The notes beneath the pieces are model-generated. The model did not search any database. It worked only from the letters and a program-made list of their open reading frames with translations, and was not told the origin of the DNA. Of a stretch of DNA of 64,000 nucleotides, positions 12,640 to 47,454 are shown in pieces. The first letter of the stretch is position 1. Each line of letters begins with the position of its first letter. The stretch covers positions 22,179 to 86,178 of the forward strand of contig MFRW01000001.1 in the NCBI GenBank assembly GCA_001786575.1. Reading direction: 5' to 3'. This stretch comes from Candidatus Moranbacteria bacterium RIFCSPHIGHO2_01_FULL_55_24. Lineage in GTDB: Bacteria; Patescibacteriota; Minisyncoccia; Moranbacterales; UBA1568. The translations under genes and the position numbers were made by a program.

Positions 12640-12672
12640 TCACAAGAATACACATTCACATTTTCTTTTCCT

Positions 12673-14631
12673 ATGCACGCTTCCCCGCAAAACGAAATCG
12701 CTTTTTTCGCCAAGACGAACTTCCGTAACCAGGATCGCGTTTTCGGTATCAAGTTGGATGACCGGCGCCGGCACATGTACGTGATCGGAAAGACCGGCAT
12801 GGGCAAGACCAATCTTTTGGAAAACCTGGCGATCCAGGATATCCAGAACGGGCACGGTATCGCCTTCATCGATCCGCACGGAGACACGGCGGAAAAGCTC
12901 ATCAAGGCTATCCCGTCTTCGCGCATCAACGATGTCATCTATTTCAATCCGGCCGATCAGGACTTTCCGATCGCGTTCAATGTGATGGAGAAAGTGGATC
13001 CCGAATACCGTCATCTGGTCGCCTCCGGCCTGGTCGGAGTCTTCAAGAAGCTCTGGGCGGAATCCTGGGGACCGCGTCTCGAATACATCCTGCGCAATGA
13101 CATCATCGCCCTTCTCGAGTATCCCGGAAGCACGCTCCTCGGCGTGACGCGCATCCTCGTCGACAAATCCTACCGCGAACGGGTGGTAGAGAAGATCACC
13201 GACCCGGTGGTACGCAGCTTCTGGGTGGATGAATTCACCAAGTGGAACGAGCGCGTGCTCCAGGAAGTCATTTCTCCGATTCAGAACAAAGTAGGTCAGT
13301 TCCTCTCGAGCTCGCTTATCAGAAATATCGTCGGCCAGACGGCATCTTCTTTCGATGTGCGCAAAGTCATGGATGAGAAGAAGATTCTCATCATGAACCT
13401 CTCGAAGGGCCGCATCGGCGAGGACAACAGCGCGCTTCTTGGCGCTATGATGATCACCAAGATCCAGCTGGCCGCCATGAGCCGCGTAGATATCCCGGAG
13501 GAGACCCGTAACGATTTCTACCTCTACGTCGATGAGTTCCAGAACTTCGCTACCGAATCGTTCGCGAACATCCTGTCCGAGGCCCGCAAGTACCACCTGA
13601 ACCTCATTCTTGCGAACCAGTATGTGAGCCAGATCGACGAGAAAGTGCGCGATGCGATCTTCGGAAATGCCGGTACGATCATCTCGTTCCGCGTGGGAGC
13701 GATGGATGCGGAGTTTTTGGAGAAGGAATTCGAGCCGGTCTTTATGGCGAACGATATCATCAATCTTCCCAAGTATCAGATCTACCTCAAGCTCATGATC
13801 GACGGTATCGCAGGAGACGCCTTCAGCGCGACGACGCTTCCGCCGATCAAGCTGGAAGACGCCGGGAATGAAGACAAGATCATCCAGGGTTCGCGCGAAC
13901 GCTATGCCTCGAAGAAGGATGATGTCGAAGATAAGATCCGCCGCTGGAGCGGCATGCTGACAGCCGAAGAGCGCCAAGCGCTTATCAAGCCGGTGAATGC
14001 GCCTCGGAGAGAAGCGCCAGTTATCACGAGGAAAGCCCCTCCGAAACCAGCGCCGGTCTCGAAGAAGGAACAGGTGCCGCGTGCGGAAGCTCCTCGAGCT
14101 CCTCAAGCCGCAGAAGTCCTCGCAGAAAGACCGCGAGAAGAAGCGGAGCTGCCTCCTCTGGAAGAGGAGAAAAAGCCGGCAGAAGTGCCGGCGGAGATAG
14201 AGGAAGTGCCTGAAGAGGAACCTGGAGCAGAAGCTGCCGTCCCTCGTACCCTGTACGATACGGTCTGTGCCACGTGCGGCACGCCTATCCAGGTACCATT
14301 CAAGCCGGATGGCAAGCGCCCGACATTCTGCAAGGATTGCCTGCGGGATTACCAGCGCGCCACCGCCAAGGCCCGTCTCGAAGAAGAACGGAAGCACGGA
14401 GCGGGCGAAGGCCAGGGGATAAGGACCGGACAACGGAACTCTATAAAAGAGCAGCCGGAACGCCGACTGGAGCGCAGGGTGTATGCTACGGATGAGAGGC
14501 CGGTTTCTCTCGCCCAAGTGCAGCATATCGGCCCCAAGAAATTCAAGAGTCTGCGAAAGCGCCCGGAAGTGAACCTTTCCGAGCTCCGCGAGCTCATCCA
14601 CACGACGCAGAAAAAGAATGGAGAAAGCTGA
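12673..14631 (+). CDS. VirD4/TraD/TraG (type IV coupling protein)-like P-loop ATPase, soluble, with Pro/Glu-rich linker and C-terminal 4-Cys zinc ribbon
   Basis: Walker A VIGKTGMGKTNLL followed by IDPHGD (T4CP DPKGE-like). Motif YFNPADQDFPIAFNV. Walker B FYLYVDEFQNF. Sensor ARKYHLNLILANQ. Tail EEAELPPLEEEKKPAEVPAEIEEVPEEEPGAEAA then CATCG...VPFKPDGKRPTFCKDC. Confidence 0.65.
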   Translation: MHASPQNEIAFFAKTNFRNQDRVFGIKLDDRRRHMYVIGKTGMGKTNLLENLAIQDIQNGHGIAFIDPHGDTAEKLIKAIPSSRINDVIYFNPADQDFPIAFNVMEKVDPEYRHLVASGLVGVFKKLWAESWGPRLEYILRNDIIALLEYPGSTLLGVTRILVDKSYRERVVEKITDPVVRSFWVDEFTKWNERVLQEVISPIQNKVGQFLSSSLIRNIVGQTASSFDVRKVMDEKKILIMNLSKGRIGEDNSALLGAMMITKIQLAAMSRVDIPEETRNDFYLYVDEFQNFATESFANILSEARKYHLNLILANQYVSQIDEKVRDAIFGNAGTIISFRVGAMDAEFLEKEFEPVFMANDIINLPKYQIYLKLMIDGIAGDAFSATTLPPIKLEDAGNEDKIIQGSRERYASKKDDVEDKIRRWSGMLTAEERQALIKPVNAPRREAPVITRKAPPKPAPVSKKEQVPRAEAPRAPQAAEVLAERPREEAELPPLEEEKKPAEVPAEIEEVPEEEPGAEAAVPRTLYDTVCATCGTPIQVPFKPDGKRPTFCKDCLRDYQRATAKARLEEERKHGAGEGQGIRTGQRNSIKEQPERRLERRVYATDERPVSLAQVQHIGPKKFKSLRKRPEVNLSELRELIHTTQKKNGES

Positions 14632-14673
14632 AAGAAACGCCCGTAGTTGTTCGGAGTGGCCGGTTTTGGTATC

Positions 14674-14793
14674 ATGGAGGATATGAGTTTCAGAAAATGG
14701 CACAAACGAGCCTACACCTTCTGGGTAGGGATCTCTATTCTCGTGGTGGTTTCCATGGTGGCGTTCCTTTTCGCGCCGTTCTTTATGTACTAG
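14674..14793 (+). CDS. Possible small membrane protein (36-39 aa)
   Basis: ORF MEDMSFRKWHKRAYTFWVGISILVVVSMVAFLFAPFFMY immediately upstream of the ftsB-like gene. One TM helix. Not in the ORF track because shorter than 60 aa. Confidence 0.3.
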   Translation: MEDMSFRKWHKRAYTFWVGISILVVVSMVAFLFAPFFMY

Positions 14794-14799
14794 GAGCCT

Positions 14800-15189
14800 A
14801 TGAAGCCCAAAGACTGGTACATGCGCCTCTTCGTAGCAGGCCTTCTGGTCCTGATCGGCTGGGCGCTCTATGTGTCTTCCAAACAGCTGGAGAGGAATAA
14901 GCGGATCGCACAGGAAGTGAACACGCTCCAGGAAGAGGCGGAAAAGATCAGGAAGGAAAACGAGACGCTTTCGGAGAGGATCGGGTACTTCTCTTCGCAG
15001 GAATTCCGCGAACAGGAAGCCAAGAAGAAATTGGGTCTGAAGAAGCCGCAAGAGACAGTCGTAGCGATCAAAGAAGAGGTTCCGGAGGAGCAGGGACAAG
15101 ACGCGGTTTCCGAGTCTCCGAAGGAGGCATCCAAGAGTCCGTCGGAAATTTATATGAAATGGTGGCAGCTTTTTTTCGCAAAAAACTAA
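14800..15189 (+). CDS. Septum formation initiator (FtsB/DivIC-like)
   Basis: N-terminal TM (LFVAGLLVLIGWALYV) followed by coiled coil LERNKRIAQEVNTLQEEAEKIRKENETL. GGAG RBS upstream. Confidence 0.55.
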   Translation: MKPKDWYMRLFVAGLLVLIGWALYVSSKQLERNKRIAQEVNTLQEEAEKIRKENETLSERIGYFSSQEFREQEAKKKLGLKKPQETVVAIKEEVPEEQGQDAVSESPKEASKSPSEIYMKWWQLFFAKN

Positions 15190-15208
15190 CTTCTCAAACG
15201 TCAAATGT

Positions 15209-16273
15209 ATGGACATAAAGAAGGATGTCTTGCAGAAGGTCAAAGTGAAATGGGAAACGGCGGCATACGCGCTTCTTGCGGTCGTCGTCTTCGTATTCGC
15301 GGCGAGCCTCATCGCTGTGTACGCGGTACCGCGCGGCACCTATCCGCTTATCGAACGCTTCTCCAAAGCGACTCCATACCCGGTTTCGATCGTCGGCATG
15401 AAAAACTTCATCAGCGAGCGCGAGCTTTCCGGAAATATGCGCTCTATCCGACGTTTCTATGAAGCCCAGGATTTCTCGCAGATCGGGCTACGGGTAGACT
15501 TTTCGACCGAAGAAGGCCAGAAACGCTTCCGTATCCGCGAGAAAGAAGTCCTAAACAAGATGATCGAAGACGCCGCGGTAGTGGAGATCGGCAAGAAGTA
15601 CGGTATCACTATCACCCAAGAGATGGCTCGCGAGGGCGTGCGCCGCTCGCTCGACGAATACGGCAACAGCGATACTGTGAAACAGGATTTGGAACGCCTC
15701 TACGGGTGGAGCTTGAGTGATTTCGAAGAGAAGATCGTATTGCCGAGCCTGTATGAAGAGAAACTCCAAGAAGTGTTCGCCAAGGAAAACGAAGCTTCAG
15801 ACGTCGCGAAGGAAAAGATCCAGAAAGCCGACCAGGCGCTGCGGGACGGCAAGCCTTTCCGGGAAGTAGCGATCGAATATTCGGACGGACAGACCAAGGA
15901 GAAAGGCGGGGAGCTGGGATGGTTCCAGATTTCAGATCTGACTCCCGAACTCCAGAAGCCGGTATCGATCCAGAAAGTCGGTGCTCCGGGGAGCATTATC
16001 GAAAGCGCTCTCGGGTACCATATCGTCATAATCGAAGAGACGAAAAGCGAAGACGGGGAGATGTTCTATCGCTTGAGTCAGGTATTCGCCCGCAAAGCTA
16101 CCTTTGCAGATTGGATGACAGAGAAGATGAAGGGCGTGTCGATTTTCGTCCTGTCTCCGGAATACCGCTGGAATGCCGAAGAAGCGCGGGCCGAATTCAG
16201 GCGCCAGGAGATGCGAGAGTTTGAGGAGGAAGTCTACAAGAATACGAACGGCGATGCCCTTTTTTTCTTCTAG
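15209..16273 (+). CDS. Peptidyl-prolyl cis-trans isomerase, parvulin type (PrsA/SurA-like), membrane-anchored
   Basis: N-terminal TM, chaperone-like region, then parvulin domain (FREVAIEYSDGQTKEKGGELGWFQ ... GYHIVII). Confidence 0.75.
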   Translation: MDIKKDVLQKVKVKWETAAYALLAVVVFVFAASLIAVYAVPRGTYPLIERFSKATPYPVSIVGMKNFISERELSGNMRSIRRFYEAQDFSQIGLRVDFSTEEGQKRFRIREKEVLNKMIEDAAVVEIGKKYGITITQEMAREGVRRSLDEYGNSDTVKQDLERLYGWSLSDFEEKIVLPSLYEEKLQEVFAKENEASDVAKEKIQKADQALRDGKPFREVAIEYSDGQTKEKGGELGWFQISDLTPELQKPVSIQKVGAPGSIIESALGYHIVIIEETKSEDGEMFYRLSQVFARKATFADWMTEKMKGVSIFVLSPEYRWNAEEARAEFRRQEMREFEEEVYKNTNGDALFFF

Positions 16274-39806: not shown

Positions 39807-41468
39807 ATGCTGACACTCAAAGAAATTCGGAAAACTTTAGGCGGCCAACGCGTGCTCAACAAGATCTCGTTTTCGATCGGTGAGGGCCAACGCGTGGCGC
39901 TCGTGGGACAAAACGGCGTGGGCAAGTCCACGCTGCTTCGTATTATCGCGGGCCTGGAAGATGCGGATCGCGGCGAGATCCTGCTTCCGAACCGGGTCCT
40001 CAAGGGCTATCTGCCCCAGGAAGCGCTTGCGACCGCGGACGAAACTCTCGGGAGTTACCTCCGGCGCATGGCCGGGCTTGAAGCGCTCGAACAGGAGATG
40101 AAAGTCCTGGAAGGCAAGCTGGAGAATCCGGAAGCCATGGAGCAATATGAAACGCTCATGGGCGAATACCGGCGCCTCGGCGGTTACGACTTCGAGCGGC
40201 GCATGCAGAAGGTGGTCGAAGGATTGCGTCTCCATACCGTCGGCCCGGAACGGCTCGTCTCGGAGCTTTCTGGCGGCGAACGGCGCAAGGCGGCGCTTGC
40301 GGGAGTGCTTCTGCGCGGAGTCGACCTGCTTCTCTTGGACGAACCCACGAACAACCTGGATCTTCCGGCGCTTCTCTGGCTGGAGAAATATCTCGTGCAG
40401 TCCGGCGCGACCTGCCTTATCGCCTCCCATGACCGGAGCTTCCTTGACCATGTCGTAGAAAAGGTGATCGAGATCGACTGGATCAAGCGCGAAGCCAAGA
40501 TGTACACCGGCAACTGGTCCACTTATTCAGAAATGAAAGCGCATGCCTTCCGCCGGCACAAGGAAGAGTACCGCCGTCAAGAAGAGGAACGCGAACGGCT
40601 GACGGAATCCAAGGTCCAGAAGAAAGAATGGGCCGATCGCGTCTGGGATAGGAAGGTGTATGACCTCGACAAGATGGCAGCCCACTTCAAGAAAGAACGC
40701 GCGTCCAAGAAATTCCATGCCTCCGCCAAGGCGATCGAAGGACGCGAGAAGCGTCTCCGCACCGTCGAGACGCCTCTGGAGCGGGCGCCGCTCATGATCG
40801 ATCTCGGTATCCCGGAAGAGAGCGAAGCCAAGGATCTCTTGGTCCAGGCGGAAGAGCTCCGCTTCGGATACCCGTCCGGTTTTTCGGGCGGCCCGGTTTC
40901 ATTCGCTATCCCGTTCGGGAGCCGCATCGCGCTCCTGGGGGATAATGGTGCCGGGAAGACGACGCTTTTGAAGACGCTTACCGGACAGCTCGCGCCGCTC
41001 GGGGGCACGCTTACCGTGGGAGGTTTGGTCAAGTTCGGCTACCTGGTCCAGGAGCACGAAGAACTCATCCGGGACGAGAAGATAAAGGTCAGGGAATTCT
41101 TCAAGCGCCGGCTCAAAGGTTTCGACCATGACGAGCTCCCGAAGCGCTTCCAGGATTTCCAGTTGCCGCTCACGCTTCTCGACACCCGGCTAAGCCAAGT
41201 GAGCCCCGGGGAACGCGTGCGCATGCTGGTGCTCCTCTTGGTGCTCCAGCAGGTGAATGTTCTCGTCTTAGACGAGCCGACGAATCATCTCGACTTGGAA
41301 GCGATCGAAGCGCTTGAGGAATCAACGAATGCTTTCCCGGGAACGCTCCTCCTGGTCACGCATGACCGGAGATTTCTTGAAAACGTCCGGCTCGATGAAC
41401 ACTATCTGCTCCAAGAGGGGCAGCTGGCGCGCCTTCCCGGGAAAGATATCCTGGAGCAGACTCTTTGA
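39807..41468 (+). CDS. ABC-F family ATPase (tandem ABC domains, no TMD; EttA/Uup-like)
   Basis: Two cassettes: GQNGVGKSTLL / LSGGERRKAALAGVLL / LLLLDEPTNNLD and GDNGAGKTTLL / LSPGERVRMLVLL / VLVLDEPTNHLD, with an inter-domain linker. Confidence 0.85.
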   Translation: MLTLKEIRKTLGGQRVLNKISFSIGEGQRVALVGQNGVGKSTLLRIIAGLEDADRGEILLPNRVLKGYLPQEALATADETLGSYLRRMAGLEALEQEMKVLEGKLENPEAMEQYETLMGEYRRLGGYDFERRMQKVVEGLRLHTVGPERLVSELSGGERRKAALAGVLLRGVDLLLLDEPTNNLDLPALLWLEKYLVQSGATCLIASHDRSFLDHVVEKVIEIDWIKREAKMYTGNWSTYSEMKAHAFRRHKEEYRRQEEERERLTESKVQKKEWADRVWDRKVYDLDKMAAHFKKERASKKFHASAKAIEGREKRLRTVETPLERAPLMIDLGIPEESEAKDLLVQAEELRFGYPSGFSGGPVSFAIPFGSRIALLGDNGAGKTTLLKTLTGQLAPLGGTLTVGGLVKFGYLVQEHEELIRDEKIKVREFFKRRLKGFDHDELPKRFQDFQLPLTLLDTRLSQVSPGERVRMLVLLLVLQQVNVLVLDEPTNHLDLEAIEALEESTNAFPGTLLLVTHDRRFLENVRLDEHYLLQEGQLARLPGKDILEQTL

Positions 41469-41575
41469 CAGGACCTCATAAAGAGCGCATAACAATAGAT
41501 TCAGAGAAGGAAGAGAAAAAGTTCTTTGGAAAGGAGACAGGAAAAGAAGGGGAAACAGATAAAGAGGAGGAAGAG

Positions 41576-42079
41576 ATGCCTGATTCGTATCGCGTAAAGG
41601 CTTTCCTATGCCGAGCGTCGGCTGTCCTGTGCCTGTTGCTTGCCGCTTTCGGTATCGTTCCGGTCGCGTATGCCGCCGGATCTTGCCAAGAGCAGGGGCA
41701 TCAGGCTGGATGGTTCGCTGTAAGCGGCATGAAGACTCCGAGCGATCCCCGCGTAGCATTTGTCTATAACGGAGTAGCTCGGGATTTCTGCTTGTTCCGC
41801 CTAGAAAAGAAAAGGCTTGTCTTCAGGCCTCTCGTTGCCGCCGGGGTATTGTATGAAAAAGCTCCGTGGCATTCTTGGCACGAGATCATCGAAGATGGCT
41901 GGTCTGTCCGGTACATGATCCAGGGAGAATTCCGCTATCCGATCAGCCGCGACGGCAGTCTCGGGTTCGTCATAAGCAAGATGACGGCGCCGGATGACAG
42001 GTCGCTCCGGCATATCTATGGAGATGACGATGATGGAGTCTTTCTCGGCGTTTCCTTTGTCCGGAATTTCGGATTATGA
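41576..42079 (+). CDS. Hypothetical secreted protein
   Basis: ORF 41465..42079. ATG at 41576 gives signal peptide MPDSYRVKAFLCRASAVLCLLLAAFGIVPVAYAAGS. The upstream in-frame segment is purine-rich low-complexity. Confidence 0.45.
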   Translation: MPDSYRVKAFLCRASAVLCLLLAAFGIVPVAYAAGSCQEQGHQAGWFAVSGMKTPSDPRVAFVYNGVARDFCLFRLEKKRLVFRPLVAAGVLYEKAPWHSWHEIIEDGWSVRYMIQGEFRYPISRDGSLGFVISKMTAPDDRSLRHIYGDDDDGVFLGVSFVRNFGL

Positions 42080-42199: not shown

Positions 42200-43876
42200 A
42201 TGAGACAACAGATCAAAATTCGCTGGCAATTCGCCGGAGTACTCCTTCTTGGCCTTGTTTCAGGCCTGATTGCCTACCCGGAGTCCGTCCGTTTCGCTGC
42301 TCCTATCCATGAATTCTTCTCGCAATTCAAGGTGAATCAGGGACTCGACCTTCAGGGCGGGATCCATTTGGAATACGCGGCCGACGTCTCCGCGCTTCCG
42401 AGCGACAAAGCGGATGAAGCGCTGGCGGCTGCCGAAGCGGTCATCGAGCGCCGTGTGAATGCCTTCGGCGTCGGCGAGCCTCTGGTACAGCTGGCCCGGT
42501 CCGGCACCGAGCACCGCATCATCGTCGAGCTTCCAGGCATCAAAGACATCGAGCAAGCCAAGAAGATGATCAAGGAAACGCCGTTCTTGGAATTCCGCGA
42601 GCCGGCCGGCGAGGAAGTGCAGAAAGAGATCGATACAGCGAACGAGGCAGCCAAGGGAAAGGCGGCGGTTCTGCTTGCGCGTGCCAAGGCCGGTGAAGAC
42701 TTCGCGACCATGGCCAAGCAGTCGAGCGAAGACCCGGGATCCAAAGACAACGGCGGAGACCTGGATTTCGTGAAGCAGGGGATGTTCGTCCCGCAATTCG
42801 ACGAGGTGATTTTCAAGCCGGACTTCAAGGCCGGCACGGTCTATCCGGAATTGGTCGAGAGCGATTTCGGATGGCATATCATAAAGAAACTCGAGGAGCG
42901 GGGCGAGGGCGATAACCGCGAAGTGCGCGCCGCGCATATCCTTCTCTTGAAGCGTTCGTTGAACGACAGTCCGCTCTTGGCCTATCAGCCGACGGGGCTT
43001 TCCGGCAAGCATCTGAAAGACGCCTATGTGGACTATCAGACCCAGGGTCTCGGCTCGCCGCAGATCGCACTCCAATTCGATGACGAGGGGACGAAGCTTT
43101 TCGCCGAAATCACCAAGCGAAACATCGGCAAGCCGGTAGCGATCTTCCTCGACGGGGAAATCATCAGTCAGCCGACGGTCCAGAACGAGATCGTCGCCGG
43201 CCAGGCAGTGATCACCGGAAACTTCACGCTGCCGGAAGCCAACGAGCTGGTGCGCCGCCTGAATGAAGGCGCGCTGCCGGTGCCGATCACACTCGTCTCG
43301 CAGCAGAGCGTCGACGCTTCCCTAGGAGAAAGCGCTCTCCGGCAGAGCTTGTTCGCCGGACTCGTCGGGCTCGCGGCAGTGGCGATCTTCATGGTTTTCT
43401 ACTATCGTTTTCTCGGAGTGATCGCGGTTCTGGCACTCCTCCTCTACACGGCGATGCTTCTCGCCATCTTCAAGCTTTCCGCTTTCACGCCATTCTCTAT
43501 CACTGTGACGCTTTCGGGTATCGCCGGGTTCGTCCTCTCGATCGGTATCGCCGTGGATGCGAACGTGCTCATCTTCGAGCGTACCCGCGAAGAGCTCTCC
43601 TATGGCAAGGGCGCGATCAAGTCGATCAAGGAAGGCTTCCGCCGCGCCTGGCCGAGCATCCGCGACGGCCACGTCTCGACGCTTCTCACGACGCTTATCT
43701 TGATCGGTTTCGGCACAGGCTTCGTCAAGGGCTTCGCGGTCATCCTCGCTTTGGGTGTGCTCCTCTCGCTCTTCACTGCCGTGGTCTTGGTGCGCATCAC
43801 GACGACGTTCTTCATCGGCGAATGGATGGAGAAACACCCATGGATCCTCGTCTCTCCCAAAAAGCCTCTGGAATAA
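42200..43876 (+). CDS. secD: Protein translocase subunit SecD with inserted parvulin-type PPIase module in the periplasmic P1 domain
   Basis: TM1, P1 head (GLDLQGGIHLEY ... VQLARSGTEHRIIVELPG), parvulin block EDFATMAKQSSEDPGSKDNGGDLDFVKQGMFVPQFDEV...FGWHIIKK followed by VRAAHILL, then canonical P1 base (AIFLDGEIISQPTVQNEIVAGQAVITG; GALPVP) and TM2-6. Confidence 0.8.
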   Translation: MRQQIKIRWQFAGVLLLGLVSGLIAYPESVRFAAPIHEFFSQFKVNQGLDLQGGIHLEYAADVSALPSDKADEALAAAEAVIERRVNAFGVGEPLVQLARSGTEHRIIVELPGIKDIEQAKKMIKETPFLEFREPAGEEVQKEIDTANEAAKGKAAVLLARAKAGEDFATMAKQSSEDPGSKDNGGDLDFVKQGMFVPQFDEVIFKPDFKAGTVYPELVESDFGWHIIKKLEERGEGDNREVRAAHILLLKRSLNDSPLLAYQPTGLSGKHLKDAYVDYQTQGLGSPQIALQFDDEGTKLFAEITKRNIGKPVAIFLDGEIISQPTVQNEIVAGQAVITGNFTLPEANELVRRLNEGALPVPITLVSQQSVDASLGESALRQSLFAGLVGLAAVAIFMVFYYRFLGVIAVLALLLYTAMLLAIFKLSAFTPFSITVTLSGIAGFVLSIGIAVDANVLIFERTREELSYGKGAIKSIKEGFRRAWPSIRDGHVSTLLTTLILIGFGTGFVKGFAVILALGVLLSLFTAVVLVRITTTFFIGEWMEKHPWILVSPKKPLE

Positions 43877-43880
43877 ACGT

Positions 43881-44786
43881 ATGCTCAATATCATCCAAAA
43901 AAGAATCTACGCCTACATTTTTTCCGGCATCCTGACGGCGGCAAGTATCGCCCTGCTTTTCTTCTGGGGATTGAACCTCGGTATCGACTTCAAGGGCGGA
44001 ACGCTCATGGAGGTGCGCTTTGCGCTTTCCGAAACCCCGAGTGTTCCGATGATCCAGGAGAAGATCGGCGGTCTGGGGCTCCAGAGCCTCACTATCCAGC
44101 CGACCGGGGACCAGAGCGTCCTTTTGCGCTATCTGGCTTCTGATGACAATGCCAACCAGGCCGTGCTCGGCGCGCTCCACTCGCTCGATCCGGGCATCAC
44201 CCAGCTCCGCACGGATTTCATCGGCGGATCGGTCTCGAACCAGATCACCCGGAACGCGATTACCGGGACGCTTCTTTCCATCCTCGGCATCGCACTCTAT
44301 ATCGCCTGGGCCTTCCGCGGCGTTTCCGGAGCGGTGACTTCCTGGGAATACGGCATCGGCGCGGTCATCGCGCTGGCCCATGACATCATCATTACCCTGG
44401 GCGTCTTCTCGATCCTCGGACACTTCTACGGAGTGGAAGTAGGCGTGCCGTTCATCGCTGCTATTCTCACCATTCTCGGCTATTCGGTGAATGACTCTAT
44501 CGTGGTATACGACCGGGTGCGCGAGAACCTCCAGCGTCGCTCGAGCAAAGAGCCATTCGAGCTATTGGTCAACCGCTCGCTCAACGAGACGCTGGGGCGC
44601 TCCATCAACACGTCGCTCACGGTCATCATCACGCTCATCGCTATCGTCCTTTTCGGCGGCGAGAGCATCCGCTGGTTCGGGGTCGCGCTCCTCGTAGGTG
44701 TCGGCTTCGGAACATACTCTTCCATCTATATCGCATCGGCCCTGCTCGTGACGCGCTATAATATAAAGAAGGGGATCGGAAGATAA
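43881..44786 (+). CDS. secF: Protein translocase subunit SecF
   Basis: Motifs MLNIIQKRIYAYIF, GIDFKGGT and C-terminal TM core (NDSIVVYDRVRENL). ATG at 43881 within ORF 43755..44786. Confidence 0.85.
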   Translation: MLNIIQKRIYAYIFSGILTAASIALLFFWGLNLGIDFKGGTLMEVRFALSETPSVPMIQEKIGGLGLQSLTIQPTGDQSVLLRYLASDDNANQAVLGALHSLDPGITQLRTDFIGGSVSNQITRNAITGTLLSILGIALYIAWAFRGVSGAVTSWEYGIGAVIALAHDIIITLGVFSILGHFYGVEVGVPFIAAILTILGYSVNDSIVVYDRVRENLQRRSSKEPFELLVNRSLNETLGRSINTSLTVIITLIAIVLFGGESIRWFGVALLVGVGFGTYSSIYIASALLVTRYNIKKGIGR

Positions 44787-44830: not shown

Positions 44831-45130
44831 ATGTGGAATCCATTTTCCAAAAACCAAGACGACAAGGATAAGCAAGATGAACTCGAAGAGCTCGCCGGCA
44901 TGCCCGGGATGCCGGAGACCAAGGACATGAGCATGATGCAGCGCTTCGCGATGAAGCGTCTGGCCAAGATGAGTCCGGCCGAGCGCGAGAAGGTCATGAA
45001 GAAGGCGATGACACCGAAGAATATCGAGAAGCACAAAGGCGAGATTATCGCGTCTCTCGAAGCCATGCGTAAGGCAGGCCAGATCTCGGACGACCAGTAC
45101 CGCCTTGCGAAGAAGCGTTTCGGCCTCTAA
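44831..45130 (+). CDS. Hypothetical small basic/Met-rich protein
   Basis: 99 aa. No domain recognised. Confidence 0.4.
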   Translation: MWNPFSKNQDDKDKQDELEELAGMPGMPETKDMSMMQRFAMKRLAKMSPAEREKVMKKAMTPKNIEKHKGEIIASLEAMRKAGQISDDQYRLAKKRFGL

Positions 45131-45150
45131 TACACAGCAAAGTCCTCTCT

Positions 45151-46347
45151 ATGAATACAAACAGCCAGGAGCAGAAAATCGAGGAGCTCTTGTCCCGCGG
45201 CGTCGCGGAGGCGATCGACCGGGAGCATCTCAAAGAGCGTCTTCTTTCGGGTGAGAAGCTCCGCGTGAAGCTCGGGATCGATCCGACCAGTCCGAACATC
45301 CACATCGGCCGCGCCGTACTCCTCCTGAAGCTTCGGGATTTCCAGGAACTCGGCCATCAGATCGTTTTCATCGTCGGGGATTTTACGGGCGTGATCGGCG
45401 ATACTTCTGACAAAGAGAGCGAGCGTCCCATGCTTTCGGAAGAGACGATTAAAGAGAACCTCAAAAGCTACACCGAACAAGCGGGGAAGATCCTCGACAT
45501 CTCCAAGACCGAGGTCCGCTACAATTCCGAATGGCTTGCCAAGCAGAGCTTCAGCGAGATCGGGAAGATGGCAGACGCTTTTTCGCTTGCCGAATTCAAC
45601 GCCCGCGAGAATATCAAGAAGCGCCTGGATGCCGGGAAGCGCGTTTCGCTTCGCGAGCTCCTCTACCCGCTCATGCAGGGCTATGACAGCGTTGCCGTAG
45701 AGGCGGACGTCGAGCTCGGCGGGACCGACCAGCGCTTCAACCTGCTCGCCGGCCGGCACCTCCAGCCGCTCTATGGACAGAAGCCGCAGGATATCCTCAT
45801 GACGGACCTCATCCTCGGGACCGATGGCCGCAAGATGAGCTCGAGCTGGGGCAACACCATCAACCTGACCGATACCCCGAACGACATGTTCGGAAAAGTG
45901 ATGAGCATCCCGGACGAACTCATCGTAAGCTACCTTGTTCATTGCACTCGGGCACCGATGGAAGAAATATCGCGGATTGAAAAAGAACTTTCTGGCGGTG
46001 CGAACCCGCGTGACGCCAAGGTCTTTCTCGCTAAAGCGCTTGTCGAACTCTATTACGGACCGGAAGCAGCTCTGGCTGCTGAAAAATATTTTATTGATAC
46101 CTTTTCCAAAGGTGTCGTACCGGAAGAGGTGCGTCCTTCCCAGGCTCCGGCCGGAAAGAGCTTGGTCGAGTTTCTGGTGGCTGAAGGGCTTGCCGAAAGC
46201 AAGTCGGATGCCCGGCGGAAAATAGAGCAGGGAGGCGTCAGTGTCGATGGAGAGAAACTTACCGATCCGGAAGTGGAAATCGGTGACGATTTCTCCGGCA
46301 AAGTCATGAAAGTCGGCAAGAAGGATTTCGTGAAGATAGTGTTGTAA
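45151..46347 (+). CDS. tyrS: Tyrosine--tRNA ligase
   Basis: HIGH motif PNIHIGR, KMSKS motif KMSSS, C-terminal S4 domain (SKSDARRKIEQGGVSVDGEKL). Confidence 0.85.
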   Translation: MNTNSQEQKIEELLSRGVAEAIDREHLKERLLSGEKLRVKLGIDPTSPNIHIGRAVLLLKLRDFQELGHQIVFIVGDFTGVIGDTSDKESERPMLSEETIKENLKSYTEQAGKILDISKTEVRYNSEWLAKQSFSEIGKMADAFSLAEFNARENIKKRLDAGKRVSLRELLYPLMQGYDSVAVEADVELGGTDQRFNLLAGRHLQPLYGQKPQDILMTDLILGTDGRKMSSSWGNTINLTDTPNDMFGKVMSIPDELIVSYLVHCTRAPMEEISRIEKELSGGANPRDAKVFLAKALVELYYGPEAALAAEKYFIDTFSKGVVPEEVRPSQAPAGKSLVEFLVAEGLAESKSDARRKIEQGGVSVDGEKLTDPEVEIGDDFSGKVMKVGKKDFVKIVL

Positions 46348-46419
46348 ATTTTGCAGCAGGATTGTTTCGTTAGCTGAAAAATCTTCGCCAAACGGAGAGA
46401 AATTAGATAGAATAGCAGT

Positions 46420-47454
46420 ATGCAAGAACGAATTCTCGAGATTGGACAGGCGGCGAAAAGCGCTCTCCTCGCTCTTCAGAGCACGGAGGCGCTTCTTGAT
46501 TGGGAAGTAGAATACCTGGGCCGCAAGAGCGAGCTCAATGCCATCCTGAAGGGTCTCAAGGACCTCTCTGCGGAAGAACGGCGCGTCGTGGGTCCGGCTG
46601 CCAATGCGCTGAAAACCGAACTCACCCTTCTTCATAAGGAAAAAGAGACAGCGCTTCGTGAATCCGCGCGCGACTGGGAGAGCGAAGGCATCGACGTGAC
46701 CGCTCCGGGTGCCAAGAAGCCGCTGGGTCATTTGCATCCTGTCACCACCCTCGAGCATGCTGTCGAGGACATTTTCACCGAACTCGGATTCGCCATTGCG
46801 GACGGTCCGGAGCTCGAGAAGGAATGGTACAACTTCGATGCGCTCAACTTCCCCAAGGATCACCCGGCGCGCGATATGCAGGATACGTTCTGGGTCTCGA
46901 CCAAGAAGGGAAAGGATCGGTTCGTCATGCGCACCCACACTTCTCCGGGCCAGGTGCGCTATATGGAGACTCACAAGCCGCCCTTCCGCGTAGTGGTACC
47001 GGGGCGCGTCTTCCGTAACGAAGCCACCGACGCATCGCATGAGCATACTTTCAATCAGTTCGAATGTCTTATGGTAGGGGAGGCCGGCGAAGTCAGCGTC
47101 GCCACATTCAAATACTTAGCAACCACTTTCTTCGAACGTTTCTTCGGAAAGAGGGTCGAGGTGCGTCTACGCCCGAGCTTCTTCCCGTTCACCGAGCCTT
47201 CGTTCGAATTCGATATCACCTGCGTGCTCTGCAATGGCAAAGGCTGCTCGACCTGCAAGCAGACAGGGTGGCTCGAGATCGGCGGCGCCGGCATGGTGAA
47301 CCAACGCGTCTTCGAGGCGGCCGGCTACCCGCGCGGCAAGTATCAGGGATTCGCGTGGGGGTTCGGTCTGACCCGGCTCGCCATGATGAAGTACAAGATT
47401 TCCGATATCCGCCTCCTCATGAGCGGCGATCTTCGTTTTATCCGGCAGTTTTAG
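46420..47454 (+). CDS. pheS: Phenylalanine--tRNA ligase alpha subunit
   Basis: Motifs FPKDHPARDMQDTFW, FRNEATDASHEHTFNQFE and GFAWGFGLTRLAM. Confidence 0.9.
   Translation: MQERILEIGQAAKSALLALQSTEALLDWEVEYLGRKSELNAILKGLKDLSAEERRVVGPAANALKTELTLLHKEKETALRESARDWESEGIDVTAPGAKKPLGHLHPVTTLEHAVEDIFTELGFAIADGPELEKEWYNFDALNFPKDHPARDMQDTFWVSTKKGKDRFVMRTHTSPGQVRYMETHKPPFRVVVPGRVFRNEATDASHEHTFNQFECLMVGEAGEVSVATFKYLATTFFERFFGKRVEVRLRPSFFPFTEPSFEFDITCVLCNGKGCSTCKQTGWLEIGGAGMVNQRVFEAAGYPRGKYQGFAWGFGLTRLAMMKYKISDIRLLMSGDLRFIRQF

What the first reader, a model, noticed from the sequence alone, without database searches (positions are those of the whole stretch)
42200..43876. SecD with an inserted, apparently circularly permuted parvulin PPIase domain in the periplasmic P1 region
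Between the P1 head (…IIVELPGIKDIEQAKKMIKETPFLEFRE) and the canonical P1 base (…AIFLDGEIISQPTVQNEIVAGQAVITG…GALPVP) lies a roughly 110-aa block. The block aligns residue-by-residue with PpiC/PrsA parvulins (EDFATMAKQSSEDPGSKDNGGDLDFVKQGMFVPQFDEV…FGWHIIKK). The hallmark first strand VRAAHILL follows the domain rather than preceding it, suggesting a circular permutation accommodated by insertion into a loop. Catalytic His residues (HIL, WHII) are retained. This would fuse a foldase directly to the translocon exit. A separate membrane-anchored parvulin is also encoded at 15209..16273.
Basis: seen in the sequence. Interest (0 to 1): 0.55.

Follow-up and report, generated by a model that had tools for sequence, protein, structure and literature searches.

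The report
SecD with built-in permuted parvulin foldase
The protein-export subunit SecD of this Candidatus Moranbacteria genome carries a complete proline-isomerase (parvulin) domain spliced into its outer loop with its first strand moved to the end, a fusion shared by dozens of candidate-phyla-radiation (CPR) lineages that ties a folding enzyme covalently to the secretion machine.

Summary
ORF 42200..43876 (+) is a 558-aa SecD, 100% identical to a Candidatus Moranbacteria protein, with secF directly downstream.

Between the N-terminal part of the P1 domain (aa 77-135) and the P1 head (aa 256-361) lies a roughly 120-aa parvulin domain (Pfam Rotamase_3, E = 5.8e-23). The Pfam match lacks the N-terminal strand beta1. 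A strand EVRAAHILLL (aa 241-250) follows the last strand instead.

Five lines of evidence show this trailing strand is the missing beta1:
- Moving it to the front restores an end-to-end match to canonical parvulins.
- AlphaFold2 places it in a hairpin with beta4 at pLDDT 96-97.
- Its histidine is kept or lost together with the beta4 histidine in 85 diverse homologues.
- Residue covariation couples it to beta4, beta2, alpha1 and alpha4.
- Foldseek aligns only the 80-column core to single-domain parvulins.

So the circular-permutation reading is supported, though I had no coordinates to superpose.

The fusion is not unique. It occurs in 74 of the 80 best GTDB loci kept and in at least 88 50%-identity clusters, across Patescibacteria. 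Some relatives carry tandem or canonical-order versions.

Foldase activity at the translocon exit is inferred, not shown. I found no paper describing the fusion or a permuted parvulin. I rate it a new variant of known kinds, of moderate interest.

The parts
42200..43876 (+). secD, 558 aa plus stop codon, with the parvulin insert in periplasmic domain P1
   Evidence: ORF list. TIGR01129 372 bits against a cut-off of 244. 100% identical to a Cand. Moranbacteria SecD. Foldseek top hits are the SecDF structures 5xan, 5yhf and 3aqp.
42428..42604 (+). N-terminal part of P1 (Pfam SecD_1st, aa 77-135), ending in the strand LEFRE
   Evidence: PF21760, 6.4e-18. AF2 strands at 95-112 and 130-135.
42605..42970 (+). 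Inserted, circularly permuted parvulin domain (aa ~136-257)
   Evidence: PF13616, 5.8e-23, and PF00639, 1e-17, both lacking the beta1 positions. The isolated-domain AF2 model has pLDDT 91.3 and pTM 0.82. SecDs without a parvulin core (PV-less) have only a 9-230 aa variable linker at this site.
42611..42901 (+). Parvulin core in the order alpha1, alpha2, (alpha3), beta2, alpha4, beta3, beta4 (aa 138-234). It holds D187, F196, F200, S221 and H226.
   Evidence: DSSP of the AF2 models. Among 48 close homologues: H226 48/48; D187 is D in 31 and E in 15; position 221 is S or T in all 48; F200 48/48. The core superposes on CsPin (2rqs) at 1.9 A over 80 columns.
42902..42919 (+). Hairpin loop GEGDNR (aa 235-240), joining what are the C- and N-termini of a canonical parvulin
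   Evidence: AF2 DSSP. A similar '(E)RGEG' junction occurs between tandem parvulin domains of a SurA-like protein (L069, third ORF).
42920..42949 (+). Trailing strand EVRAAHILLL (aa 241-250): the relocated beta1 carrying the first active-site histidine, H246
   Evidence: The re-permuted construct regains profile positions 12-115 and 9 bits, and aligns with SurA P2 EVHARHILL. pLDDT 96-97. H246 is present in 47/48 close homologues. His-His co-variation gives p = 2e-6. DCA (residue-covariation analysis) couples it to beta4, beta2, alpha1 and alpha4.
42965..43282 (+). P1 head subdomain (aa 256-361)
   Evidence: PF22599, 7.3e-30.
43289..43819 (+). C-terminal membrane domain of the RND (resistance-nodulation-division) transporter type (aa ~364-540), with the invariant AVDANxLxFER motif
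   Evidence: PF02355, 5.2e-10. AF2 helices at 374-538. D453, N455 and R461 are invariant in 118 homologues.
43881..44786 (+). secF, the partner subunit, starting 5 nt after the secD stop codon
   Evidence: TIGR00966 278 bits against a cut-off of 160, and PF02355 8e-56.
15209..16273 (+). Separate membrane-anchored parvulin protein resembling PrsA or PpiD. It is context only and not part of the SecD feature.
   Evidence: Rotamase 3.3e-15 at aa 192-276, plus a weak SurA_N_3 match.

Best explanation
This is a functional SecD subunit of the SecDF export motor that carries a complete, probably catalytically competent parvulin domain. The parvulin is inserted at the hypervariable junction between the N-terminal (base) part of P1 and the P1 head.

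The parvulin is a natural circular permutant. The chain enters at helix alpha1 and runs through beta2, alpha4, beta3 and beta4. It then turns through an approximately 6-9-residue loop into the strand EVRAAHILLL. That strand occupies the central beta1 position of the sheet and supplies the first of the two hydrogen-bonded active-site histidines.

The most likely origin is a fragment of a tandem parvulin protein of the SurA/PpiD type, captured one strand out of register. This is the duplication-and-truncation route to permutation.

Inferred function: the domain sits next to the substrate-binding P1 head outside the membrane. There it would bind emerging unfolded chains and isomerise their prolyl bonds as SecDF pulls them out. 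The job done non-covalently by PpiD, PrsA, SurA or the Mycoplasma dome proteins would thus be hard-wired into the translocon at 1:1 stoichiometry.

Shown: the architecture, the permuted order, conservation of the catalytic-site residues, and wide conservation across Patescibacteria.

Inferred: the exact three-dimensional placement of the strand, enzymatic activity, and action on translocating substrates.
For: Identity and architecture:
- SecD identity and domain layout.
- secF is adjacent.

Permuted order:
- The Pfam hits lack beta1.
- The re-permuted construct raises Rotamase_3 from 85.7 to 94.8 bits, with profile coverage extending from 33-115 to 12-115. It raises Rotamase from 68.7 to 72.3 bits with coverage 1-94.
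- The construct aligns end to end with SurA P2.
- No His-bearing beta1-like strand lies upstream of the core in any single-core homologue, whereas an EVxAxHIL strand lies 7-8 residues downstream in most of them.

Structure prediction:
- In the full-length model the insert is the best-predicted region, with 10-residue-block pLDDT 85-92.
- The isolated insert has pLDDT 91.3 and pTM 0.82, and the strand has pLDDT 96-97.
- DSSP gives beta4 (224-234), a loop, then beta1' (241-250), plus a 6-residue beta2 ladder. In the canonical fold that ladder pairs with beta1.
- Foldseek aligns single-domain parvulins over the core only (2rqs: 80 columns, 1.9 A). Tandem parvulin proteins (8hm3, 8hm4) align over the whole query.

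Covariation:
- Among 85 single-core sequences, 73 keep both histidines, 6 lack both, 6 keep only the beta4 histidine, and none keeps only the strand histidine. Fisher p = 2e-6.
- This fits the structural coupling of the two histidines described for parvulins (PMC2678132).
- Mean-field DCA (290 sequences, Neff 178) couples the strand to beta4 (L231-A245), beta2 (D187-R243), alpha4 (F200-V242, I204-A244) and alpha1 (A151-L249, G153-I247).
- These are the faces that S. aureus PrsA beta1 packs against. The residue equivalences rest on my own alignment of a recalled PrsA sequence to the residues named in PMC2678132.

Selection:
- In 48 close homologues H226 is present in 48/48 and H246 in 47/48. 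D187 is D or E in 46/48. Position 221 is S or T in 48/48. F200 is present in 48/48.

Breadth:
- All 120 and all 120 listed homologues carry Rotamase plus SecD Pfam domains.
- 88 of the best 150 50%-identity cluster representatives carry the core.
- 74 of the 80 best GTDB loci kept carry it.

Origin:
- Inter-domain junctions of canonical tandem parvulins read VGYHIIQLIERRGEGINTRHILIK and FGYHIIKKTGERASKGQLKTAHIMVV. SecD reads FGWHIIKKLEERGEGDNREVRAAHILLL.

Functional analogy:
- PpiD-YfgM with SecYEG (PMC9643414).
- SurA with the Sec machinery (PMC9987972).
- Mycoplasma PrsA-like dome proteins with SecDF (10.1101/2025.04.25.650208 and 10.1101/2024.09.05.611430).
Against: - No coordinates were available, so the strand's occupancy of the beta1 slot was not measured directly. 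It rests on DSSP, pLDDT, covariation and sequence.
- The beta4/beta1' register suggested by DCA and DSSP (i+j about 474-476) is not exactly the register that puts the two histidines directly opposite (472). They may be diagonal neighbours.
- The Fisher test ignores phylogeny.
- Published work cited in PMC2678132 shows the histidines are not strictly needed for catalysis, so their conservation proves structural integrity rather than activity.
- Some family members have lost both histidines (P0150, P0157, P0163, P0170). Catalysis is therefore dispensable in some lineages.
- Tandem relatives show a histidine pattern that a simple series of permuted units does not explain.
- No experiment links the domain to translocating substrates.
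Confidence: 0.8

Rival explanations
1. The domain is structurally a permuted parvulin, but it works mainly as a non-catalytic substrate-binding (holdase) or steric module. This would resemble SurA P1 or the PpiD parvulin-like domain. It could, for example, enlarge the substrate-capture surface of the P1 head or tune its hinge motion.
For: - The insert sits exactly at the base-head junction.
- Some single-core relatives have lost both histidines and the Asp (P0150, P0163).
- In tandem relatives the first core is always degenerate.
- The histidines are reported to be structural rather than essential for catalysis (PMC2678132).
Against: - In the window's clade the full active-site set is conserved: D or E at 187, S or T at 221, H226, H246, F200, and an aromatic residue (F or Y) at 196 in 46/48.
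- 73 of 85 diverse single-core sequences keep both histidines.
- Binding and isomerisation are not mutually exclusive.
Confidence: 0.2
2. There is no real permutation. The insert is an N-terminally truncated parvulin, and the trailing strand is a vestige of a lost second domain. On this view the strand does not complete the sheet and serves only as a linker to the P1 head.
For: - The core-loop-HIL sequence is just what a junction of tandem parvulins looks like.
- Tandem and canonical-order SecD relatives exist, in which Pfam aligns the middle strand plus the next core as a full canonical domain, positions 1-97 of 97.
Against: - A parvulin without its central strand would leave beta2 unpaired and one active-site histidine missing.
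- AF2 gives the strand pLDDT 96-97 inside a compact domain with pTM 0.82.
- The strand's histidine co-varies with the beta4 histidine.
- The strand has strong covariation with beta2, alpha1 and alpha4.
- The strand is as conserved as the core.
Confidence: 0.07
3. The fusion is an assembly or gene-calling artefact: a chimeric contig, or a read-through of adjacent secD and ppiC genes.
For: The source is a metagenome-assembled genome.
Against: - The insert is internal to P1 and in frame on both sides.
- The exact protein is found on 6 contigs in 5 databases.
- The same architecture occurs in hundreds of 90%-identity clusters and in 74 of the 80 GTDB loci examined.
Confidence: 0.01

Closest known systems
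SecDF of Thermus thermophilus and Deinococcus radiodurans (PDB 3aqp, 5xan, 5yhf)
   Same: Same subunit: TM1, then P1 (base plus head), then five transmembrane helices. These are the best Foldseek matches (E down to 8.5e-23). TIGR01129 scores above its cut-off. secF is adjacent.
   Different: The solved proteins have no enzyme domain in P1. Here about 120 aa of parvulin are inserted between the N-terminal part of P1 and the head. In other SecDs that site holds only a 9-230 aa variable linker.
Canonical parvulin PPIase domains (E. coli PpiC/Par10, SurA P2, PrsA, Pin1, CsPin)
   Same: Same fold elements and the same active-site residues (Asp, Ser/Thr, two His, a Phe-rich pocket). Sequence E-values reach 3e-15 to SurA. 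The core superposes on CsPin at 1.9 A.
   Different: The order of elements is rotated: alpha3-beta-alpha-beta2-beta instead of beta-alpha3-beta-alpha-beta2. The native termini are joined by the ERGEGDNR loop, and new termini open between beta1 and alpha1. No permuted parvulin was found in the searchable literature.
Translocon-associated parvulin chaperones: E. coli PpiD-YfgM, SurA with SecDF-YajC, B. subtilis PrsA, and the M. pneumoniae Mdp444/436/489 dome on SecDF
   Same: A parvulin module is positioned at the outer face of the Sec machinery to receive emerging chains (PMC9643414; PMC9987972; 10.1101/2025.04.25.650208; 10.1101/2024.09.05.611430).
   Different: Those are separate proteins with their own membrane anchor and a SurA/trigger-factor-type chaperone domain, and they associate non-covalently. 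Here the parvulin alone, with no chaperone domain, is part of the SecD polypeptide.
Tandem-parvulin proteins, typed as SurA/PpiD-like from sequence alone (B. fragilis PPIase 8hm3/8hm4; L069 and L075 ORFs)
   Same: These give the best whole-query Foldseek matches (129-142 columns). The inter-domain junction '...GYHIIxxxERRGEGxxxxHILI' resembles the SecD beta4-loop-beta1' segment.
   Different: In those proteins the strand after the junction starts a second complete domain. In the window's SecD no second core follows, and the strand is predicted to fold back onto the preceding core.

Membership tests
SecD (protein translocase subunit, TIGR01129) | Whole-protein match to the SecD equivalog-domain model above its curated cut-off | tested here: met
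   TIGR01129 scores 372.3 bits against a cut-off of 244.4, with aa 48-533 covering model positions 2-395 of 397.
SecD (protein translocase subunit, TIGR01129) | Periplasmic P1 domain with an N-terminal part and a head subdomain, followed by the SecD/SecF C-terminal membrane domain | tested here: met
   PF21760 at 6.4e-18, PF22599 at 7.3e-30 and PF02355 at 5.2e-10. Foldseek top hits are SecDF structures.
SecD (protein translocase subunit, TIGR01129) | A partner secF gene, or fusion to SecF | tested here: met
   ORF 43881..44786 scores 278 bits on TIGR00966 against a cut-off of 160.
SecD (protein translocase subunit, TIGR01129) | PMF-dependent stimulation of protein export | not testable with these tools
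   The membrane-domain motif AVDANxLxFER is invariant in 118 homologues. Its equivalence to the proton-path Asp of T. thermophilus SecDF was not aligned here.
Parvulin PPIase domain (Pfam PF00639 / PF13616) | Match to the family HMM above the gathering threshold | tested here: met
   PF13616 scores 82.1 bits (cut-off 22.5). PF00639 scores 65.3 bits (cut-off 21.7).
Parvulin PPIase domain (Pfam PF00639 / PF13616) | Canonical element order beta-alpha3-beta-alpha-beta2, with beta1 at the N-terminus (PMC2678132) | tested here: not met
   The native hits start at profile positions 10/97 and 30/116. There is no upstream beta1. The beta1-like strand lies after beta4. All elements are present, but in rotated order.
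Parvulin PPIase domain (Pfam PF00639 / PF13616) | Two conserved active-site histidines on beta1 and beta4, plus Asp/Cys and Ser/Thr partners | tested here: met
   H246 and H226, D187, S221. Alignment to SurA P2. Conservation 47/48, 48/48, D or E in 46/48, S or T in 48/48.
Parvulin PPIase domain (Pfam PF00639 / PF13616) | Parvulin three-dimensional fold | tested here: met
   AF2 isolated domain has pLDDT 91.3. It superposes on CsPin (2rqs) over 80 columns at rmsd 1.9 A with TM(target) 0.70, and PrsA and other PPIase hits follow. Placement of the relocated strand is inferred, not superposed.
Parvulin PPIase domain (Pfam PF00639 / PF13616) | Peptidyl-prolyl cis-trans isomerase activity | not testable with these tools
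   This needs an enzyme assay.
PrsA / SurA / PpiD chaperone-PPIases | A SurA-N / trigger-factor-type chaperone domain flanking the parvulin, and an own anchor or signal peptide | tested here: not met
   No SurA_N or related Pfam hit in SecD at E <= 0.1. The parvulin is flanked by SecD P1 segments. It plausibly works like these proteins but is not a member. The separate ORF 15209..16273 is the candidate member (a weak SurA_N_3 match at 0.0016).
Natural circular permutant of a domain | Moving the C-terminal segment to the N-terminus restores a collinear full-length match to the family | tested here: met
   For the re-permuted construct, PF13616 covers 12-115 at 94.8 bits, against 33-115 at 85.7 bits for the core alone. 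PF00639 covers 1-94. It gives an end-to-end phmmer alignment with SurA P2.
Natural circular permutant of a domain | Sequence-order-independent structural superposition on the canonical fold, including the relocated element | not testable with these tools
Indirect support comes from pLDDT and DSSP, His-His co-variation and DCA.

The most novel reading that the evidence does not exclude
The SecD-parvulin family may be a living record of how a domain becomes circularly permuted. Its members span three forms: single permuted cores; tandem forms (core1, His strand, core2, trailing strand); and forms with a canonical-order parvulin plus an extra trailing strand.

The histidine pattern in the tandem forms is as follows. 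Core1 has lost its beta4 histidine and the middle strand keeps its histidine. Core2 keeps its histidine and the trailing strand has usually lost its own. This pattern suggests that a canonical parvulin is nested inside the beta4-beta1' hairpin of a permuted, now degenerate parvulin.

Functionally, the catalytic domain would ride on the PMF-driven P1 head. Pulling of the chain and prolyl isomerisation would then be mechanically coupled in a single polypeptide. In these small genomes that could substitute for part of the extracytoplasmic chaperone network.
Probability: 0.25. Interest if true: 0.7.

Novelty: new variant of a known kind. Interest (0 to 1): 0.55.

Why it matters
SecDF is thought to pull chains out of SecYEG with its mobile P1 head. 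Whether and how folding catalysts are coupled to that step is being worked out now, through PpiD-YfgM, SurA-SecDF and the Mycoplasma Sec-dome complex.

A covalent SecD-parvulin fusion conserved across many Patescibacteria lineages is a natural 'Rosetta-stone' argument that the two activities belong together. It also offers a compact single-polypeptide system for testing that coupling.

The fusion additionally appears to be the first described natural circular permutant of the parvulin fold, at least within the literature I could search. Intermediate architectures in relatives could document the duplication-and-truncation route.

The databases label these proteins simply 'SecD', so the feature is invisible to anyone reading annotations.

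Tried and rejected
- **Foldseek on the full-length model.** It returned only SecDF and RND transporters in the top 50, so it said nothing about the insert. I remodelled the insert alone.
- **Direct test of strand placement.** This was not possible. The tools return no coordinates and Foldseek is order-dependent. I substituted His-His contingency and a home-made mean-field DCA.
- **Beta4/beta1' register.** The DCA register for the hairpin is ambiguous (i+j = 473-476).
- **Loci L069 (Melioribacteraceae) and L075/L077/L079 (Psychroflexus).** They looked like fusions outside CPR. L069 and L075 are ordinary tandem-parvulin proteins, not SecD; L077 and L079 likewise show no SecD architecture. I found no evidence for the fusion outside Patescibacteria.
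- **Re-permutation test on the second parvulin (15209..16273).** It gave no gain in score or coverage, so the result is inconclusive.
- **The listing of cluster members.** It named only 2 of 10 representatives usefully: a Patescibacteria group bacterium and Candidatus Peribacterales.
- **Tandem relatives.** I considered modelling them to settle nested versus serial topology.
- **Arrest peptide upstream of secD.** I considered that ORF 41465..42079 might be a secretion-monitoring arrest peptide. It is 204 aa with no terminal arrest-like motif and no Pfam match, so I dropped the idea.
Full report
**What is at the coordinates**

ORF 42200..43876 (+) encodes a 558-aa protein. It is SecD. NCBIfam TIGR01129 scores 372 bits against a cut-off of 244.

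Pfam finds:
- Sec_GG
- SecD_1st (aa 77-135)
- SecDF_P1_head (aa 256-361)
- SecD_SecF_C (aa 364-528)

An AlphaFold2 model matches the SecDF crystal structures 5xan, 5yhf and 3aqp best. secF follows 5 nt after the secD stop codon, at 43881..44786. The protein is 100% identical to a database entry from Candidatus Moranbacteria, so the window comes from a Patescibacteria (CPR) genome.

**The parvulin block is real**

Two Pfam parvulin models match between SecD_1st and the P1 head:
- Rotamase_3 matches aa 145-232 (E = 5.8e-23, 82 bits against a cut-off of 22.5).
- Rotamase matches aa 143-229 (1e-17).

Both matches begin well inside the profile, at positions 30/116 and 10/97. The N-terminal strand beta1 is therefore missing where it should be.

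The IIVELPG...LEFRE segment is the N-terminal (base) part of P1. The AIFLDG...GALPVP segment is the P1 head.

SecDs without a parvulin core (PV-less) have only a linker at this junction. It is highly variable, 9 to 230 residues, and is often low-complexity or acidic by eye. The junction is thus a natural insertion hot spot. In the window the insert spans roughly aa 136-257.

**Is it circularly permuted?**

Several independent lines say yes.

1. *Sequence.* The strand EVRAAHILLL (aa 241-250) follows beta4 (FGWHIIKKLEE) after the loop RGEGDNR.
   - I moved it in silico in front of helix alpha1.
   - Rotamase_3 rose from 85.7 bits (core alone) to 94.8 bits, and profile coverage extended from 33-115 to 12-115.
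   - Rotamase coverage extended to 1-94.
   - The construct aligns end to end with the second parvulin domain (P2) of SurA, whose beta1 reads EVHARHILL.

2. *Absence of an alternative.* In single-core homologues nothing upstream of the core resembles a His-bearing beta1. An EVxAxHIL strand lies 7-8 residues downstream of the core in most of them.

3. *Structure prediction.*
   - In the full-length model the insert is the most confident region, with 10-residue-block pLDDT 85-92.
   - The excised insert has mean pLDDT 91.3 and pTM 0.82, and the trailing strand has pLDDT 96-97.
   - DSSP shows helices at 138-163, 168-175 and 198-204, and strands at 187-192 (beta2), 224-234 (beta4) and 241-250.
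   - In the canonical fold beta2 pairs with beta1. That sheet order is recalled knowledge and was not checked here; PMC2678132 gives only the beta-alpha3-beta-alpha-beta2 order.
   - A well-formed beta2 ladder therefore implies that the beta1 slot is filled.

4. *Foldseek behaviour.*
   - Single-domain parvulins align over the core only. CsPin (2rqs) gives 80 columns, rmsd 1.9 A and 39% identity.
   - Tandem-parvulin proteins (8hm3, 8hm4) align over the whole query, because 'core, junction, beta1' is collinear with their domain 1 to domain 2 junction.

5. *Histidine co-variation.*
   - I examined 85 single-core inserts, taken from 50%-identity cluster representatives and GTDB species genomes.
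   - 73 keep both histidines, 6 lack both, 6 keep only the beta4 histidine, and none keeps only the strand histidine.
   - Fisher p = 2e-6, not corrected for phylogeny.
   - This matches the known hydrogen-bonded, mutually stabilising histidine pair of parvulins (PMC2678132).

6. *Residue covariation.* A mean-field DCA on 290 non-redundant inserts (Neff 178) puts these pairs among its top 40:
   - strand to beta4: L231-A245, R234-E241, E232-R243
   - strand to beta2: D187-R243
   - strand to alpha4: F200-V242, I204-A244
   - strand to alpha1 or alpha2: A151-L249, G153-I247, D167-I247

   In S. aureus PrsA the residue after the beta1 histidine packs against helices H1 and H2. The histidine face packs against F216 and L220, which correspond to SecD F200 and I204 by my own alignment of a recalled PrsA sequence (PMC2678132). 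The relocated strand thus has the partners expected of beta1.

I could not superpose coordinates, so the strand's placement remains a strong inference rather than a measurement.

**Conservation and breadth**

Active-site residues among 48 homologues of 70-80% identity:

| Position | Conservation |
|---|---|
| H226 | 48/48 |
| H246 | 47/48 |
| D187 | D in 31, E in 15 |
| 221 | S or T in 48/48 |
| F200 | 48/48 |

Breadth of the architecture:
- All 120 best hits of a single-sequence search carry Rotamase plus SecD Pfam domains. So do all 120 best hits of a profile search, down to 53% identity. The sources call them simply 'SecD'.
- An exhaustive search of 50%-identity representatives found a parvulin core between SecD_1st and the head in 88 of the best 150.
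- A scan of GTDB species genomes kept the 80 best of 363 confirmed loci, and 74 of the 80 encode the architecture.
- The named lineages are Moranbacteria, Parcubacteria, Buchanan-, Kuenen-, Komeili-, Magasanik-, Falkow-, Peregrini- and Saccharibacteria.
- The apparent hits outside CPR that I examined (L069, L075) are ordinary tandem-parvulin proteins, not SecD.

**Variants and likely origin**

Relatives fall into three architectures:
- *Single core plus trailing strand*, as in the window.
- *Tandem*: core1, His strand, core2, trailing strand.
- *Canonical-order*: a roughly 130-aa unassigned or degenerate segment, then a parvulin in canonical order (Pfam 1-97/97), then a trailing strand.

The single-core form shares its N-terminal flank (P.LT.EE...L) with core1 of the tandem forms. 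In more distant single-core relatives (P0137, P0154, P0159), the C-terminal flank (KTK...D[IF].PP..EW.NT.L[ST]GK) matches that of the tandem trailing strand. This second motif is not present in the window's own protein.

Junctions between domains of canonical tandem parvulins read almost like the SecD hairpin:
- L069: VGYHIIQLIERRGEGINTRHILIK
- L075: FGYHIIKKTGERASKGQLKTAHIMVV

The simplest origin is a tandem-parvulin fragment fixed one strand out of register. This is the classical duplication-and-truncation route to permutation.

In tandem SecDs the histidines show an odd pattern. Core1 has lost its histidine, the middle strand keeps one, core2 keeps one, and the trailing strand has mostly lost its own. 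That pattern hints at a canonical domain nested in the hairpin of a degenerate permuted one. I could not resolve this.

**Mechanism**

Shown:
- an intact SecD with its SecF partner
- a complete parvulin with a conserved active site, inserted at the base-head junction outside the membrane

Inferred:
- The domain binds unfolded chains emerging from SecYEG beside the substrate-binding P1 head.
- It accelerates prolyl isomerisation, or at least holds the chains.
- It thereby does in cis what PpiD-YfgM, SurA, PrsA and the Mycoplasma PrsA-like dome proteins do in trans (PMC9643414, PMC9987972, 10.1101/2025.04.25.650208, 10.1101/2024.09.05.611430).

Some lineages have lost the histidines, so a purely binding role is a live alternative. 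The genome also keeps a separate membrane-anchored parvulin (15209..16273), so the fusion adds to that protein rather than replacing it.

**Novelty and verdict**

Six full-text searches found no paper on a SecD-parvulin fusion or on a circularly permuted parvulin. The domain co-occurrence is visible in precomputed Pfam annotation, so it is known to databases but not, as far as I could search, to the literature.

I rate it a new variant of known kinds: SecD, the parvulin fold, and translocon-associated foldases. It is confirmed as an observation and supported as an interpretation. Interest is moderate at 0.55.

Noticed in passing
window 15209..16273 (+): The separate membrane-anchored parvulin also has its Pfam hit starting at profile position 10. 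After beta4 (GYHIVIIEE) it carries a hairpin plus the strand FYRLSQVFARK, which resembles the SecD trailing strand with His replaced by Gln. An upstream candidate strand, KLQEVFAK, also exists. Whether this domain is permuted, canonical or five-stranded is open.
   Followed up: partly
related loci L058, L059, L061-L066, L068, L070, L072, L078; proteins P0131, P0138, P0139, P0144, P0145, P0149, P0153, P0155, P0191, P0195, P0205: These are tandem-parvulin SecDs. Core1 always lacks the beta4 histidine, the strand between the cores keeps HIL, core2 is intact, and the trailing strand has usually lost its histidine. A simple series of permuted units does not explain this pattern. It suggests a canonical parvulin nested in the hairpin of a degenerate permuted one.
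   Followed up: partly
proteins P0160-P0270 without a parvulin core: The linker between SecD_1st and the P1 head ranges from 9 to 230 residues and is often low-complexity or acidic by eye. P0182 and P0247 contain what look like highly degenerate parvulin remnants. This site is a general insertion hot spot in SecD.
   Followed up: partly
loci L003, L005, L007, L010, L016, L018, L027, L029, L031 and others: MAG records titled 'uncultured Bdellovibrionales' or 'uncultured Gammaproteobacteria' encode SecD inserts 44-63% identical to the window's Moranbacteria SecD insert, with the same architecture. The organism labels of these co-assembly MAGs look wrong.
   Followed up: no
window 41465..42079 (+): A 204-aa ORF ends 120 nt upstream of secD. 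It has an acidic N-terminus, one hydrophobic segment and no Pfam family (best hit DUF6954 at E = 0.028). It does not look like a secretion-monitoring arrest peptide.
   Followed up: partly
window 44831..45130 (+): A 99-aa ORF lies just after secF. It has an acidic start, a GMPGMP motif and a lysine-rich helical tail. No Pfam match clears its curated cut-off; the only hit is a sub-threshold RPAP1_N match (E = 1e-4, 22.4 bits against a cut-off of 25.3).
   Followed up: partly
window 12673..14631 (+) and 14800..15189 (+): The first ORF is a TrwB/TraD-like coupling-protein ATPase with a C-terminal treble-clef zinc finger (PF10412, PF12696, PF23477). It is followed by a DivIC/FtsB-like septum protein, which lies directly upstream of the second parvulin.
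   Followed up: partly
window 45127..47046 (-), 12640..15339 (-), 42260..43075 (-): Very long stop-free antisense ORFs (639, 899 and 271 aa) run opposite well-supported genes (tyrS-pheS, the coupling protein, secD). They are probably non-coding shadows of the sense frames, but they are unusually long.
   Followed up: no
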